This document shows positions 3,230 to 12,470 of a DNA stretch of 20,000 nucleotides, one piece after another. Source of the DNA: Candidatus Baldrarchaeum yapensis (GTDB taxonomy: Archaea > Asgardarchaeota > Baldrarchaeia > Baldrarchaeales > Baldrarchaeaceae). The notes beneath the pieces were generated by a model. The model did no database searches and was not told the DNA's origin. It was given only the letters and a program-made list of their open reading frames with translations. Position 1 is the stretch's first letter. Each line of letters starts with the position of its first letter. The stretch is from assembly GCA_016840465.1 (NCBI GenBank), contig JAEOSH010000001.1, positions 89,263-109,262 of the forward strand, written 5' to 3'. Position numbers and translations under genes: made by a program.

Positions 3230-3753
3230 CTTTCTTGCAGTGTCATTATTTTCTTTGATTTGTTATACCTTAAAAGTGTCGTTGTGTCTCCTAGATCAAG
3301 TACCATGAGAAATGCGTCCAGCCCATCCCCGTAATAATTCCTTAGTCTCCTTGAGACTCTGAAACCACTACTCTTGTAGAGATAGATAGCAATATCATTA
3401 TCAACTGCAACTTCCAACAATGCTCTCGATAACCTTAACTCAGAAAACTTTTCCAGTATACTTAAGAGCAGTTTCCTTCCAATACCTAGGCCCCTGAAAT
3501 TGGGATGTACAGCTATAGATACGATATGACCAACGGATCCCTTAATGAGTCCGGCAACGTACCCCACAATTTTTCTCTCGATCTCAGCAACTAAAACTAT
3601 AGAATTTTTGCTCGCAATAATCCATCTAAGCGTATCAAGAGAGTAGGGCCTATCAAATGACGACTTTTCTACTAAATATATTTTAAACAGATCATCTAAA
3701 TTCGCATTACGTATCGAGACGTGAATCCTTAATTTATTACTCATTTTCAACAT
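3226..3753 (-). CDS. GNAT-family N-acetyltransferase, RimI-like
   Basis: GNAT motif IVSIAVHPNFRGLGIGRKLLLSILE and C-terminal LYKSSGFRVSRRLRNYYGDGLDAFLMVLDL. Overlaps the polB start. Confidence 0.88.
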   Translation of the reverse strand: MLKMSNKLRIHVSIRNANLDDLFKIYLVEKSSFDRPYSLDTLRWIIASKNSIVLVAEIERKIVGYVAGLIKGSVGHIVSIAVHPNFRGLGIGRKLLLSILEKFSELRLSRALLEVAVDNDIAIYLYKSSGFRVSRRLRNYYGDGLDAFLMVLDLGDTTTLLRYNKSKKIMTLQER

Positions 3754-8246: not shown

Positions 8247-8337
8247 ATATATGCAAGCCTTCCACTTGAGATAATTAGCGATTTTGGTTTTTGTTGCTTG
8301 ACTCTTCACACAAGAAATATGGCATCAGACGTTAAGT

Positions 8338-8344
8338 TTATATG
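8338..8344 (+). promoter_or_regulatory. TATA box for the permuted 5S rRNA transcript
   Basis: TTTATAT lies about 26 nt upstream of the first base of the 12-bp terminal stem (8368), the usual archaeal TATA to +1 distance. Confidence 0.6.
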
Positions 8345-8367: not shown

Positions 8368-8527
8368 GGTGCAACGCCGCGTGAGAGTTAAGCCTCCGCA
8401 CGTTCCCGGGAGTACTGTCCTCCGCGAGGGGACGGGAAACCGGGAAGCTGCTCACCCACATGGGTGGGCGGCCATAGTGCGGAGGGCAACACCCGTTCCC
8501 ATTCCGACCACGGAACGGCGTTGCACC
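8368..8527 (+). rRNA. Circularly permuted 5S rRNA precursor; predicted mature circle is 8386-8514 (129 nt)
   Basis: The canonical 3' part (GTTAAGCCTCCGCACGTTCCCGGGAGTACTGTCCTCCGCGAGGGGACGGGAAACCGGGAAGCTGCTCACCC, 8387-8457) comes before the canonical 5' part (GGGTGGGCGGCCATAGTGCGGAGGGCAACACCCGTTCCCATTCCGACCACGGAA, 8462-8515). Helix I 8447-8457/8462-8472, helix II 8477-8485/8393-8401 (9 bp perfect), helix III CCGT/ACGG, helix IV GTCCTC/GGGGAC with GCGA-type loop, helix V TTCCCGG/CCGGGAA. Terminal stem 8368-8379/8516-8527. Confidence 0.93.
8380..8515 (+). promoter_or_regulatory. Bulge-helix-bulge splicing motif pairing the two ends of the permuted 5S transcript
   Basis: Outer stem GGTGCAACGCCG/CGGCGTTGCACC; central 4-bp helix CGTG (8380-8383)/CACG (8509-8512); 3-nt bulges AGA (8384-8386) and GAA (8513-8515); inner pairs GTT (8387-8389)/GAC (8506-8508). 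Predicted cuts are after 8385 and after 8514. Confidence 0.88.
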
Positions 8528-8540
8528 GCTCCTTCTAATA

Positions 8541-8549
8541 CTTTATAAG
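8541..8549 (+). promoter_or_regulatory. TATA box for downstream DUF1512-like gene
   Basis: CTTTATAAG, upstream of the CDS starting at 8601. Confidence 0.5.
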
Positions 8550-10844: not shown

Positions 10845-11343
10845 GTTCAAACTCAAAAAAGTCGGAGTTGCGGGCACGTTTGATAAACTGCATAAGGGTC
10901 ACAAACTTTTACTTTTAACGGCATTTTCTGCAGGAGAAAGAGTAATAATAGGTATTACTTCCGAGAAGTTGATAAAGGGCAAGAAAATGTGCCAAAAGAT
11001 AGCCCCATTTGACGAGAGAGTTAAAAAGGTAAAGGAATTTCTCTCAAGCCGAGGCTTTAAGGATTATAATATAATTAAATTAGACGATCCTTATGGTCCC
11101 GCAATTAATGATCCCTCGATGGACGGATTAGTTGTAACTAGGGAAACCTTAAACAACGCACTCGCTATTAACAAGATTAGAATAAAACAGGGAATGAAAC
11201 CACTTACCTTAATAGTGGTTCCATTGGTACTTGCCGAGGATGGACTTCCAATATCCTCTACTCGTATAAGACTAGGAGAAATAGATGAGAACGGAAAATT
11301 GAAGACGTATTCAGGAGGTTTATGTCGCAATCGAAAGGTGTGA
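10837..11343 (+). CDS. coaD: Phosphopantetheine adenylyltransferase, archaeal type
   Basis: GVAGTFDKLHKGHKLLLLTAF (HxGH-type nucleotidyltransferase), GLVVTRETLNNALAINKIR, ISSTRIRLGEI. Confidence 0.9.
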   Translation: MDEFKLKKVGVAGTFDKLHKGHKLLLLTAFSAGERVIIGITSEKLIKGKKMCQKIAPFDERVKKVKEFLSSRGFKDYNIIKLDDPYGPAINDPSMDGLVVTRETLNNALAINKIRIKQGMKPLTLIVVPLVLAEDGLPISSTRIRLGEIDENGKLKTYSGGLCRNRKV

Positions 11344-11353
11344 GAAGGACTAC

Positions 11354-11360
11354 CTTTTTA
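11354..11360 (+). promoter_or_regulatory. Candidate TATA box for the H/ACA locus
   Basis: T-rich CTTTTTAT-like element about 26-30 nt before 11386, where the GC-rich structured RNA begins. Confidence 0.35.
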
Positions 11361-11385
11361 TTCCGTGTGGAATAATAAGTAATAA

Positions 11386-11496
11386 GCACCCCGCCGCGAA
11401 ATCCGTGCTTGATGGGCTCCCGCACTTTTGAGGCGCGGTGCGTCACCGCATACCGATGAGTGCGGAGTCAACCCAGGCACGGGACAGGCGGGGTGC
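11386..11496 (+). ncRNA. H/ACA-type guide RNA module 1
   Basis: Outer helix GCACCCCGCC (11386-11395)/GGCGGGGTGC (11487-11496). Lower stem TCCGTGC (11402-11408)/GCACGGG (11477-11483) is followed directly by ACA (11484-11486). Pocket TTGATGGG/TCAACCCAG; upper stem CTCC(C)GCAC/GTGCGGAG; GCGGTG CGT CACCGC apical hairpin. Exactly 16 nt lie between the upper stem and ACA. Confidence 0.65.
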
Positions 11497-11497
11497 A

Positions 11498-11602
11498 GGG
11501 GTGGGTGCAGTAAGGGCCCACTACAAGAGAGCCCAGTGGAGAGCGGCGTATGCCGCCCAGTGACACTGGGTGTTAGTCATGTGGGCCACATGCACCCACC
11601 CC
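11498..11602 (+). ncRNA. H/ACA-type guide RNA module 2 with kink-turn
   Basis: Outer helix GGGGTGGGTGCA (11498-11509)/TGCACCCACCCC (11591-11602). Lower stem GGCCCAC (11515-11521)/GTGGGCC (11581-11587) is followed directly by ACA (11588-11590). Pocket TACAAGAGA/GTTAGTCAT; upper stem GCCCAGTG (11531-11538)/CACTGGGT (11564-11571). K-turn with tandem GA (11539-11540)/GA (11562-11563) and AGT 3-nt loop; apical stem GCGGC GTAT GCCGC. Pocket-to-ACA spacing is 16 nt. Confidence 0.75.
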
Positions 11603-11621
11603 AACTTCGTGGTGGTAGCGG

Positions 11622-12470
11622 TTGCGTGTAAAGGTAAAATCATTGAGGGAAATGCTTAAGGAAATTTTTGGTGAAGACATCCCCGCAGACATTCCGAGAA
11701 AATATAAAATTTATGGAGATATTGCTGTAGTTAAGATACCAAGCAAATACCGCCACTTGAAGAAAGAGATTGGAGATCTTATTCTAAAGAACGACCCACG
11801 GATTAGATCGGTCGTAAATATTGAGAAAATTCATGGAACTTTCCGAGAGCCAATAGCTGAGGTCATCGCAGGGGACCCGAATACCGTTACGACTATCATT
11901 GAAAATTCATGTAGGTTCAAGCTTGATGTCGCCAAGCTTATGTTTTGCTTAGGGAACCAGCATGAGCGCGTGCGATTGGCGAATATAGTTTTTTCCGATG
12001 AGGTAGTTGTCGATATGTTCGCGGGGGTCGGACAATTTTCAATACCGATAGCGGTACATTGCAAACCGGAGAGAATATTTGCAATAGAAATTAATCCCAC
12101 AGCGTTTCGCTTCTTAGTAGAAAATATATTTATCAATCACGTCGAGGAAGTAATTTTCCCGATATTGGGCAATTGTAGAGAGGTAATTCCTGCATTCCTG
12201 AAAGGACGTGCCGATAGGATAATAATGGGGTTCATTGAGTACACAAACAGATACTTGGATGCCGCGCTTGTGGCTTTGAGGGATAAAGGAGGAATCATAC
12301 ACTTTCATAACGTTTATAATTCGGAGGACGCTATTGAGATGGCGATTTCCGATATAAAGGATGCCGCAGAAAGATCTAGAAGGAGACTCGTAAAAGTAAT
12401 ACACAAGCGTATAGTGAAGGAGTATGGGCCCAAGCTTGTACATGTTGTGATAGATGCAAAAATAAAATGA
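11622..12470 (+). CDS. Class I SAM-dependent methyltransferase, Trm5/TYW2-like tRNA methyltransferase
   Basis: VVDMFAGVGQFSIPIAVHCKPERIFAIEINPTAFRFLVENIFINHV and HFHNVY are Trm5-family motifs. Start is TTG 11622 or ATG 11652. Confidence 0.87.
   Translation: MRVKVKSLREMLKEIFGEDIPADIPRKYKIYGDIAVVKIPSKYRHLKKEIGDLILKNDPRIRSVVNIEKIHGTFREPIAEVIAGDPNTVTTIIENSCRFKLDVAKLMFCLGNQHERVRLANIVFSDEVVVDMFAGVGQFSIPIAVHCKPERIFAIEINPTAFRFLVENIFINHVEEVIFPILGNCREVIPAFLKGRADRIIMGFIEYTNRYLDAALVALRDKGGIIHFHNVYNSEDAIEMAISDIKDAAERSRRRLVKVIHKRIVKEYGPKLVHVVIDAKIK

What the first reader, a model, noticed from the sequence alone, without database searches (positions are those of the whole stretch)
8368..8527. Circularly permuted 5S rRNA gene
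Every conserved 5S element is present but the order is rotated. Canonical nucleotides from loop B to the 3' end (8387-8457) come first, then ACAT (8458-8461), then the canonical 5' end through helix III (8462-8515). The native 5' and 3' ends are fused, so helix I becomes an 11-bp hairpin stem (GCTGCTCACCC-ACAT-GGGTGGGCGGC). Helix II (GTGCGGAGG 8477-8485/CCTCCGCAC 8393-8401) can only form between the swapped halves. Permuted tRNAs and SRP RNAs are known in Pyrobaculum, and permuted 5S rRNAs have been described in some stramenopile mitochondria. I know of no described cellular archaeal permuted 5S gene, though I cannot search.
Basis: partly seen in the sequence, partly recalled or inferred. Interest (0 to 1): 0.97.

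Follow-up and report, generated by a model that had tools for sequence, protein, structure and literature searches.

The report
Permuted, splice-flanked 5S rRNA gene
This Asgard archaeon (Baldrarchaeia) encodes its 5S ribosomal RNA with the two halves swapped, and the flanks carry the cut-and-join signal of the tRNA-splicing enzymes, so the RNA is probably made as a closed circle; several other Asgard lineages do the same and standard annotation misses the gene.

Summary
Window 8386-8457 is the 3' part of a 5S rRNA. A 4-nt cap (ACAU, 8458-8461) follows, then the 5' part (8462-8514). Rfam gives only two sub-threshold half-hits in swapped order. A model built from the rotated sequence finds ordinary 5S genes end to end in unrelated organisms.

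The locus is identical in four independent assemblies of a Candidatus Baldrarchaeia genome. The same arrangement occurs in other Baldrarchaeia, in Odinarchaeia, in an Odin-like lineage and in Njordarchaeota. Across these, 27 of 49 base pairs carry compensatory changes.

- a 12-bp outer helix (8368-8379/8516-8527), of whose inner 10 pairs (the ones scored) 8 covary;
- an invariant 4-bp helix, CGUG/CACG;
- two 3-nt bulges.

Cutting in the bulges and ligating gives CACGGA|AGUUAAGCC, the canonical 5S sequence, on a 129-nt circle.

Best reading: a permuted 5S gene matured by the tRNA-splicing endonuclease and ligase, probably into a circular 5S rRNA. No RNA data were available. I found no published description. 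The closest precedent is the permuted SRP RNA of Thermoproteus.

The parts
8337..8344 (+). TATA-like box TTTATATG, 23 nt upstream of the first base of the outer helix. It predicts a transcription start at about G8368.
   Evidence: Direct reading. An equivalent A/T box lies upstream of the outer helix in every related locus; I counted 20-23 nt in the Baldr and Odin loci and about 28 nt in Njord. The promoter function is inferred from the known position of archaeal TATA boxes (about -26).
8368..8379 (+). H1, 5' strand of the outer (processing) helix, GGUGCAACGCCG.
   Evidence: It pairs perfectly with 8516-8527. Only the inner 10 bp (8370-8379/8516-8525) were scored across lineages: 8 of those 10 pairs carry double-sided compensatory changes and 100% of cells are paired.
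8380..8383 (+). H2, 5' strand of the central 4-bp helix of the BHB, CGUG.
   Evidence: It is complementary to CACG 8509-8512 and invariant in all seven sequences.
8384..8386 (+). Bulge A (AGA). The predicted endonuclease cut is after G8385.
   Evidence: The geometry was found by the BHB search. The bulge is AGA or AAA in all lineages. The cut position is inferred from the known archaeal BHB rule.
8386..8457 (+). 3' part of the 5S rRNA: loop B 3' strand (AGUUAAG), helix II 3' strand (8393-8401), helix V, loop E, helix IV and loop D (8403-8446), and helix I 3' strand (8447-8457).
   Evidence: Rfam RF00001 partial hit to the 3' half of the model, folds and covariation in helices V, IV and I.
8458..8461 (+). 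4-nt cap loop ACAU that joins the canonical 3' end to the canonical 5' end.
   Evidence: The loop is UUCG, GCCG or UGCG in the other lineages.
8462..8514 (+). 5' part of the 5S rRNA: helix I 5' strand (8462-8472), loop A (CCAUAG), helix II 5' strand (8477-8485), and helix III with loop C (8493-8513).
   Evidence: Rfam RF00001 partial hit to the 5' half of the model, 25.7 bits, and folds.
8509..8512 (+). H2, 3' strand of the central BHB helix, CACG. It overlaps the 3' strand of native helix III (A8510-G8513), so the BHB and helix III are alternative folds.
   Evidence: The BHB conformer lies only 1.6 kcal/mol above the MFE.
8513..8515 (+). Bulge B (GAA). The predicted cut is after A8514. Ligating A8514 to A8386 gives CACGGA|AGUUAAGCC.
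   Evidence: The junction equals the Rfam 5S consensus ...CggAAguUAAGc shown.
8516..8527 (+). H1, 3' strand of the outer helix, CGGCGUUGCACC.
8528..8548 (+). Short pyrimidine- and T-rich trailer (GCTCCTTCTAATACTTTATAA), a possible termination region.
   Evidence: Direct reading only. Related loci have T4-T7 runs 14-16 nt after H1. This is inference.

Best explanation
This is the 5S rRNA gene of a Candidatus Baldrarchaeia (Asgard) archaeon, circularly permuted at the DNA level.

Transcription probably starts at or next to G8368 and yields a roughly 160-nt precursor in which the 3' part of 5S precedes the 5' part. The old 3' and 5' ends are joined by a 4-nt cap on helix I.

The two ends of the precursor pair into a 12-bp helix (H1). 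That helix continues into a 4-bp helix (CGUG/CACG) flanked by two 3-nt bulges on opposite strands, which is a bulge-helix-bulge (BHB) motif.

The tRNA-splicing endonuclease (EndA) is predicted to cut after G8385 and after A8514. RtcB ligase is predicted to join A8514 to A8386. This restores the canonical ...CACGGAAGUUAAGCC... sequence between helix III and loop B and produces a covalently closed 129-nt 5S rRNA. Once H2 is gone, native helix III can form.

Shown here: the permutation, its conservation and covariation, the BHB geometry and the exact junction. Inferred: cleavage, ligation, and the final product staying circular in the ribosome.
For: 1. Both halves match RF00001 in swapped order.
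2. The rotated or circular product folds into the 5S Y shape, z = -5.4.
3. Model R1, built from rotated sequences, finds canonical 5S genes end to end in unrelated organisms at 59-65 bits but only split hits in the permuted loci.
4. The locus is identical in four independent assemblies.
5. The same architecture is present in other Baldrarchaeia (L011, L012, L018, L039 and more), Odinarchaeia (L037/L038), an Odin-like lineage (L042) and Njordarchaeota (L044). The 5S bodies are only 64-85% identical between lineages.
6. Covariation: 97.6% of cells are paired and 27 of 49 pairs have changes on both sides, matched by 0 of 500 shuffles. Slid controls pair at 36-49%. In H1, 8 of the 10 scored pairs covary with no broken pair.
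7. A BHB with H2 = CGUG/CACG and bulges ARA and GAA is found at the same place in every lineage. In all of them the predicted junction is CACGGA|AGU(U/C)AAGC, the canonical 5S sequence.
8. The BHB conformer lies 0-2.1 kcal/mol above the MFE in four of five lineages.
9. H1 evolves faster than the body (40-70% against 64-85% identity), and the 5S bodies of the full-length Baldr relatives are identical (apart from a 3-nt deletion in L011) while H1 and the flanks vary. This is the pattern expected of a discarded processing stem.
10. A precedent exists: the permuted SRP RNA gene of Thermoproteus is cut by the splicing endonuclease and functions as a circle (PMC4731332).
Against: No RNA data exist, so cleavage, ligation and circularity are untested.

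The inner flanking helix of the BHB (H3) is weak. It has 3 bp in the window and none by strict adjacency in the other lineages. The motif is therefore closer to a bulge-helix-loop, and it is unknown whether Asgard EndA accepts that.

Forming H2 requires melting native helix III. In the Njord sequence the BHB conformer costs 8.1 kcal/mol.

H2 and the bulges never vary, so they carry no covariation support of their own.

I could not scan a whole genome, so a second, conventional 5S gene elsewhere is not excluded.
Confidence: 0.72

Rival explanations
1. Circular intermediate, linear product. The precursor is cut and ligated at the BHB as above. The circle is then reopened in the 4-nt cap of helix I, which regenerates a conventional linear 5S rRNA. 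This is how the permuted tRNA genes of Cyanidioschyzon merolae are matured.
For: The cap sits exactly where canonical 5S termini lie. Its sequence is free to vary: ACAU, UUCG, GCCG and UGCG. The tRNA precedent is cited in PMC4267664 and PMC10085705.
Against: The cap is only 4 nt on an 8-11-bp G+C-rich stem. In the Baldr relatives it is C(UUCG)G, the form I know (own knowledge) as an unusually stable structural tetraloop, not a processing site; in Odin L037 the UUCG loop is closed by G-C. There is no spacer and no conserved flanking motif, and I know of no enzyme that would open it (own knowledge). For tRNAs, RNase P and tRNase Z define the ends, and nothing equivalent is known for 5S.
Confidence: 0.13
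2. No splicing. The mature 5S rRNA stays linear and permuted. H1 serves as a new terminal helix projecting from the loop B and helix III region. The product is then permuted, as in brown-algal mitochondrial 5S rRNA.
For: The TATA box places the transcription start at the first base of H1, so no leader needs removing. H1 is long, stable and always paired. A permuted mature 5S exists in organelles (PMC4267664).
Against: This reading does not explain four features together: the invariant CGUG complementary to CACG, the two 3-nt bulges exactly 4 bp apart, the junction that would restore the canonical sequence to the nucleotide in all five lineages, and the faster evolution of H1. It would also leave about 31 extra nucleotides inside the beta domain, where I understand ribosomal proteins uL18 and uL5 bind (own knowledge, not tested).
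Confidence: 0.12
3. Non-functional relic or assembly artefact, for example a breakpoint in a 5S tandem, with the real 5S gene elsewhere.
For: Whole genomes could not be scanned. Several metagenome contigs end inside the 5S body (L014, L022, L027, L036).
Against: The sequence is identical in four independent assemblies. Only 4 nt separate the old 3' and 5' ends. The arrangement is conserved, with 27 compensatory pairs, in five lineages whose neighbouring DUF1512 proteins are 50-57% identical to the window's, where measured. The TATA box is conserved and the locus is a G+C island. The type MAG of Baldrarchaeum (94% complete) was described with 16S and 23S but no 5S (bioRxiv 10.1101/2020.10.19.343400). 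That last point is weak, because many MAGs lack 5S.
Confidence: 0.03

Closest known systems
Permuted SRP RNA gene of Thermoproteus (Plagens et al. 2015, eLife, PMC4731332)
   Same: An archaeal, essential, universally conserved structural RNA is encoded with swapped halves. [quoted passage not shown] The ligated circular RNA is the functional form (abstract).
   Different: The RNA is different (SRP RNA, not a ribosomal RNA) and so is the phylum (Thermoproteota). That case has RNA-seq and enzyme assays. Here everything after transcription is predicted.
Permuted tRNA genes of Cyanidioschyzon merolae (Soma et al. 2007, as cited in PMC4267664 and PMC10085705)
   Same: The 3' half precedes the 5' half. 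The flanks form a splicing-type motif. The transcript is circularised by the tRNA-splicing machinery.
   Different: The host is a eukaryotic nucleus. The circle is an intermediate that is reopened at the true tRNA ends. Here the joined ends are capped by a 4-nt loop with no evident processing site.
Permuted mitochondrial 5S rRNA of brown algae and other stramenopiles (Valach et al. 2014, PMC4267664; Rfam mtPerm-5S)
   Same: Helix I is replaced by a closed hairpin, so the 5S domains are connected in a different order.
   Different: In those RNAs the new ends lie at the alpha/gamma junction (loop A) in an open three-way junction, and the mature RNA itself is permuted and linear. Here the break lies between helix III and loop B. 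It is closed by a 12-bp helix plus BHB, and it is predicted to be resealed.
Post-transcriptionally permuted or circular 23S rRNA of Pyrococcus, Thermococcus and other archaea (PMC7758197, PMC12918454)
   Same: BHB-dependent excision and circularisation of a ribosomal RNA, with circular or permuted rRNA inside ribosomes.
   Different: Those genes are colinear, and the permutation arises only in the RNA. PMC12918454 states that this processing involves 16S and 23S 'but not 5S rRNAs'.
Low-level circular 5S reads in Sulfolobus and Halobacterium (Danan et al. 2012, PMC3326292)
   Same: Circular 5S molecules were detected in archaea.
   Different: They came from ordinary colinear genes and were a minor species that RT-PCR did not validate. 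The authors suggested an intermediate or a degradation product.

Membership tests
5S rRNA (Rfam RF00001) | Full-length match to the family covariance model at gathering score (38 bits). | tested here: not met
   In genomic order there are only two partial hits, 25.7 and 15.8 bits. The permuted Odin locus likewise gives no hit at gathering score. This is the expected result for a permuted gene. The tool cannot score a rotated sequence.
5S rRNA (Rfam RF00001) | Colinearity with canonical 5S after rotation: helices I-V and loops A-E in the standard order. | tested here: met
   The rotated product folds into the Y shape. Model R1, built from rotated sequences, matches canonical 5S genes over positions 1-121 at 59-65 bits (E about 1e-10 to 6e-12; Natrinema, Thermoplasmata and uncharacterised metagenome contigs). 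It also matches a Ranarchaeia 5S at 89.7 bits.
5S rRNA (Rfam RF00001) | Helices maintained by compensatory substitutions. | tested here: met
   Pairs with changes on both sides: helix II 3 of 9, helix V 7 of 7, helix IV 6 of 8, helix I 3 of 8. Helix III is invariant. Overall 97.6% of cells are paired, matched by 0 of 500 shuffles.
5S rRNA (Rfam RF00001) | Incorporated in the large ribosomal subunit, and the only 5S of the cell. | not testable with these tools
   No RNA or ribosome data are available and whole genomes could not be scanned. There is no canonical 5S in the 20-kb window.
BHB-processed permuted RNA genes (Thermoproteus SRP RNA, C. merolae tRNA) | The 3' portion is encoded upstream of the 5' portion in one transcription unit. 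| tested here: met
   A single TATA box lies upstream and only 4 nt separate the halves.
BHB-processed permuted RNA genes (Thermoproteus SRP RNA, C. merolae tRNA) | The transcript flanks form a bulge-helix-bulge: two 3-nt bulges on opposite strands, 4 bp apart, with flanking helices. | tested here: met
   H1 has 12-13 bp, H2 is CGUG/CACG, and the bulges are AGA and GAA. The same holds in all lineages. Caveat: the inner helix H3 has 3 bp here and is absent by strict adjacency elsewhere, so the motif is of the relaxed bulge-helix-loop type.
BHB-processed permuted RNA genes (Thermoproteus SRP RNA, C. merolae tRNA) | Cleavage and ligation restore the canonical RNA sequence at the junction. | tested here: met
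   The predicted junction CACGGA|AGUUAAGCC equals the 5S consensus CggAAguUAAGc. The circles are 122-129 nt.
BHB-processed permuted RNA genes (Thermoproteus SRP RNA, C. merolae tRNA) | Actual cleavage by EndA, ligation by RtcB, and circular junction reads. | not testable with these tools
   This needs RNA-seq or circRNA-seq, or enzyme assays. An RtcB gene was seen only in a related Ranarchaeia locus (L041 12824-14269). As far as I know EndA and RtcB are general archaeal enzymes (own knowledge).
Stramenopile mitochondrial permuted 5S (mtPerm-5S) | New termini at the alpha/gamma junction (loop A) with an open three-way junction, and a linear permuted mature RNA. | tested here: not met
   Here loop A is intact and closed. 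The break lies between helix III and loop B in the beta domain. Compare the description in PMC4267664.

The most novel reading that the evidence does not exclude
Ribosomes of several Asgard lineages (Baldrarchaeia, Odinarchaeia, Njordarchaeota) contain a covalently closed circular 5S rRNA. It is made from a permuted gene by the tRNA-splicing endonuclease and ligase. 5S genes are a regular substrate of that machinery in Asgard archaea: the Ranarchaeia gene, which has the normal order, carries what looks like a 47-nt spliceable intron in loop C. These lineages would then be the first cellular organisms known to have a 5S gene with swapped halves, and the first with an obligatorily circular 5S rRNA.
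Probability: 0.5. Interest if true: 0.92.

Novelty: new variant of a known kind. Interest (0 to 1): 0.88.

Why it matters
5S rRNA is usually treated as an invariant, easily annotated RNA; one Asgard rRNA study calls it 'essentially constant'. A recent paper states that archaeal rRNA circularisation concerns 16S and 23S 'but not 5S'.

A gene-level permutation of 5S in cellular organisms would add a ribosomal RNA to the short list of permuted RNA genes (tRNA, SRP RNA, tmRNA). This one is shared by several Asgard classes and apparently repaired by the tRNA-splicing machinery. It would predict a circular 5S in the ribosomes of close relatives of eukaryotes.

It has a practical side. Rfam-based annotation fails on these genes, so MAG quality reports will wrongly score these lineages as lacking 5S.

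It also gives a shared derived character that could be mapped on the disputed Asgard phylogeny. The intron-bearing Ranarchaeia gene at the same syntenic position offers an entry point to how the permutation arose, for example by tandem duplication of a spliceable gene.

Tried and rejected
1. My one genome-contig scan used a pattern that was too strict (GTACTG...GGGAANCC...CCAYAG). It misses the relatives found later. It returned only ordinary Natrinema 5S genes followed by a chance CCATAG, and Thermoplasmata 5S genes with a large insertion. It therefore says nothing about how the trait is distributed among sequenced genomes, and it did not return the window's own species.

2. The metagenome scan found eight more Baldr loci of one sequence type. 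Its other 15 hits were chance matches, mostly ordinary 5S genes in normal order with a chance upstream GGGAA. That pattern also misses the Odin and Njord types.

3. My first BHB scan of the whole window used loose thresholds. It gave hundreds of trivial hits and timed out. With H1 of at least 10 bp there are still about 10 generic hits in 20 kb. The bare motif is therefore not rare. What is significant is its exact position, its conservation and the junction it restores.

4. I considered a kink-turn reading of CGUGAGA with GGAA. I dropped it because position 2n would be A instead of G and the BHB explains the same nucleotides better.

5. I looked for leader-trailer pairing outside H1 and found none. 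The TATA box leaves no room for a leader.

6. The locus of a Freyarchaeota-named MAG (L040) has no 5S within 21 kb.

7. A BHB search in the roughly 100-nt insertion of the Thermoplasmata 5S found no motif that would restore a canonical 5S.

8. MAFFT misaligned the apex of helix I. I left three apex pairs out of the counted structure.

Full report
**Observation.** Window 8368-8527 reads GGTGCAACGCCG-CGTG-AGA-GTTAAGCCTCCGCACG...GGGAAACCGGGAAGCTGCTCACCC-ACAT-GGGTGGGCGGCCATAGTGCGGAGGGCAACACCCGTTCCCATTCCGAC-CACG-GAA-CGGCGTTGCACC.
- Rfam finds no family at gathering score anywhere in the 20-kb window.
- At relaxed threshold RF00001 hits twice in swapped order. The 5' half of the model matches 8464-8515 (25.7 bits) and the 3' half matches about 8381-8456 (15.8 bits).
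- The region is a 57% G+C island in roughly 38% G+C intergenic DNA.
- It folds at -94 kcal/mol (z = -5.5). The fold has helix I as an 11-bp hairpin, helix II formed between the swapped halves, and a long closing helix made by the two ends.

**Not an artefact.** The neighbouring DUF1512 protein is encoded on contigs from four separate assemblies: ENA ERZ1742239, JGI 3300014886, JGI 3300014911 and NCBI GCA_054386075.1. The 221 nt around the gene are 100% identical in all four. NCBI names these proteins as Candidatus Baldrarchaeia, an Asgard class. The surrounding genes are typically archaeal (PolB, an aRF1/pelota-type protein, a TYW2-type methyltransferase).

**It is a 5S rRNA when rotated.** I joined the sequence at the predicted junction and started it at G8462. 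The result is a 125-nt RNA plus the 4-nt cap, and it folds into the textbook three-helix 5S shape both as a linear molecule and as a circle (circular MFE -64.6 kcal/mol, z = -5.4).

The Rfam tool cannot score a rotated sequence, so I ran the reciprocal test. I built covariance model R1 from rotated Baldr sequences only.
- R1 finds ordinary 5S genes end to end (model positions 1-121) in Natrinema, Thermoplasmata and uncharacterised metagenome contigs, at 59-65 bits.
- In its own genomic loci it finds only two split hits, the 3' half followed by the 5' half.

**Relatives.** Contigs carrying DUF1512 homologues (54-57% identical to the window's protein, also Baldrarchaeia) have the same permuted gene upstream. 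In these the helix I cap is UUCG and the outer helix has a different sequence. A metagenome pattern scan added eight more loci of this type.

R1 then revealed split hits in three further loci:
- an Odinarchaeia contig (L037/L038);
- an Odin-like 712-kb contig (L042);
- a Njordarchaeota contig (L044).

Reading these sequences shows the same architecture in all. The 5S bodies are only 64-85% identical between lineages.

On an alignment of seven precursors from five lineages (A4), the 5S helices plus the outer helix give these figures:
- 97.6% of cells form standard pairs.
- 27 of 49 pairs have changes on both sides.
- 0 of 500 shuffles reach any of these values.
- Controls with the 3' partner slid by 1-3 columns pair at only 36-49%.
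- Pairs with double-sided changes per helix: helix V 7 of 7, helix IV 6 of 8, helix II 3 of 9, helix I 3 of 8.

The gene is therefore under selection as a structured 5S RNA across several Asgard lineages.

**The flanks.** The outer helix H1 (8368-8379 with 8516-8527) is perfectly paired in every lineage. Of its inner 10 pairs, the ones scored on A4, 8 carry compensatory double changes. H1 evolves faster than the body (40-70% identity). Among the full-length Baldr relatives the 5S body is identical (apart from a 3-nt deletion in L011), while H1 and the flanks vary.

Immediately inside H1, on the 5' strand, lies an invariant CGUG followed by ARA. CGUG is complementary to the invariant CACG at 8509-8512, and three nucleotides (GAA) separate CACG from H1 on the 3' strand.

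This is the geometry of the archaeal bulge-helix-bulge motif. On each strand, read 5' to 3', there is a flanking helix, a 4-bp central helix, a 3-nt bulge and a second flanking helix. I derived that orientation from the known tRNA-intron case, from my own knowledge. A simple search finds this motif at the same place in every lineage.

Cutting after the second bulge nucleotide on each strand and ligating joins A8514 to A8386. The junction reads CACGGA|AGUUAAGCC, which equals the universal 5S consensus CggAAguUAAGc with no base missing or added. The products are circles of 129 nt here and 122-125 nt elsewhere, and all fold as 5S.

The BHB conformer requires native helix III to be open. It lies only 0-2.1 kcal/mol above the MFE in four of five lineages and 8.1 kcal/mol above it in the Njord sequence.

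A TATA-like box lies upstream of H1 in all lineages (20-23 nt in the Baldr and Odin loci, about 28 nt in Njord). The primary transcript should therefore begin at H1 itself.

**Interpretation.** The combination points to maturation by the tRNA-splicing endonuclease and RtcB, yielding a circular 5S rRNA. The elements of that combination are:
- a covarying but otherwise unconstrained H1;
- an invariant H2 complementary to a conserved 5S segment;
- two 3-nt bulges 4 bp apart;
- a junction restored to the nucleotide.

This is the pathway demonstrated for the permuted SRP RNA of Thermoproteus (PMC4731332).

The helix I caps are tight tetraloops; in the Baldr relatives the cap is C(UUCG)G. That argues that the cap is a permanent structural feature and not a site where the circle is reopened. 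This step is inference.

Weak points:
- There are no RNA data.
- H3 is weak or absent, so the motif is of the relaxed bulge-helix-loop kind.
- H2 and the bulges are invariant, so they have no covariation of their own.
- I could not scan a complete genome for a second, conventional 5S.

The type Baldrarchaeum MAG was published with 16S and 23S but no 5S. That fits but is weak evidence.

**Comparison with what is known.** The brown-algal mitochondrial 'permuted' 5S has its new ends at loop A and remains a linear permuted RNA, so this gene is not a member of that family. Archaeal 23S rRNAs become circular or permuted only after transcription from colinear genes, and a 2026 paper states that 5S is not processed this way. 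Minor circular 5S species were seen in Sulfolobus and Halobacterium from normal genes and were not validated. A 2023 list of natural RNA permutations includes no cellular 5S gene. Full-text searches for permuted or circular 5S in archaea returned nothing relevant.

I therefore rate this a new variant of a known kind. The mechanism is known for tRNA and SRP RNA. The substrate (a ribosomal RNA) and the clade (Asgard) are new.

**Evolutionary context.**
- An unnamed lineage (L043) has an ordinary 5S immediately upstream of DUF1512, the position the permuted gene occupies in Baldr and Njord.
- Ranarchaeia (L041) also has a 5S there, in normal order (RF00001 77 bits). It is interrupted in loop C by 47 nt that form a BHB-like motif: H2 is UCCG/CGGG, the bulges are AAA and AAC, and H3 is GUAGA/UUUAC.
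- Removing those 47 nt restores CCCAUUCCGAA|CUCGGAAG and a 122-nt 5S.

This suggests that 5S genes at this locus have been substrates of the splicing machinery in Asgard archaea. It is compatible with an origin of the permutation by duplication and deletion of a spliceable gene. The intron site and the permutation junction are 8 nt apart, so the Ranarchaeia gene is not the direct ancestor.

Noticed in passing
L041 9560-9728 (+), Candidatus Ranarchaeia MAG GCA_054387495.1, just upstream of its DUF1512 gene: This 5S rRNA gene has the normal order (RF00001 77 bits). It carries a 47-nt insertion in loop C that forms a BHB-like motif (H2 UCCG/CGGG, bulges AAA and AAC, H3 GUAGA/UUUAC). Predicted splicing restores canonical CCCAUUCCGAA|CUCGGAAG and a 122-nt 5S. 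It looks like an intron in a 5S rRNA gene, and I found no literature on one.
   Followed up: partly
L007 6025-6245 (-), L008, L009 6001-6220 (+), L005: Thermoplasmata and 'Euryarchaeota RBG' MAGs: These 5S genes carry an insertion of roughly 90-100 nt between the 3' strand of helix V and the 3' strand of helix I. This is reminiscent of the 108-nt insert I recall (own knowledge) in Halococcus 5S. No BHB that would remove it cleanly was found.
   Followed up: partly
L043 9795-9913 (+), JGI 3300025090, taxon not named: An ordinary, uninterrupted 5S gene lies directly upstream of DUF1512, the syntenic position of the permuted gene in Baldr and Njord. It may show the ancestral state.
   Followed up: no
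L011 3190-3362 (-), L012 931-1103 (-), L037 8369-8536 (-): These are very long tRNA-like genes next to the 5S loci. Two are 173-nt genes that end in CCACCA and have about 100 nt between acceptor and T arm; they were picked up only through the ends of the tmRNA model. The third is a 168-nt tRNA with two large insertions. They are presumably tRNAs with long or multiple introns.
   Followed up: no
L014, L022 and L027 (contig ends at ...GCCTCCGCAC) and L036 (contig starts at CCATTCCGAAC): Several metagenome contigs break inside the 5S body at recurring positions. The likely cause is that co-occurring Baldr strains share an identical 5S body but differ in H1 and the flanks, which forks the assembly graph. 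The H1 3' strands seen are GGAUGCC, GGGUGCC, GGACGCC and GGGCGCC.
   Followed up: no
L012 4472-4730 (+): A sub-threshold match to the H/ACA guide RNA family HgcG/Pab40 (28.7 bits, E = 9e-5) lies between the CTP_transf_like and TYW2 genes. The corresponding spacer in the window (about 11343-11622) was not examined.
   Followed up: no
L011 about 3630-3645: This Baldr copy (Guaymas sediment contig) lacks 3 nt (TCC) in helix IV compared with all other copies of its type. It is either a real variant or an assembly error.
   Followed up: no
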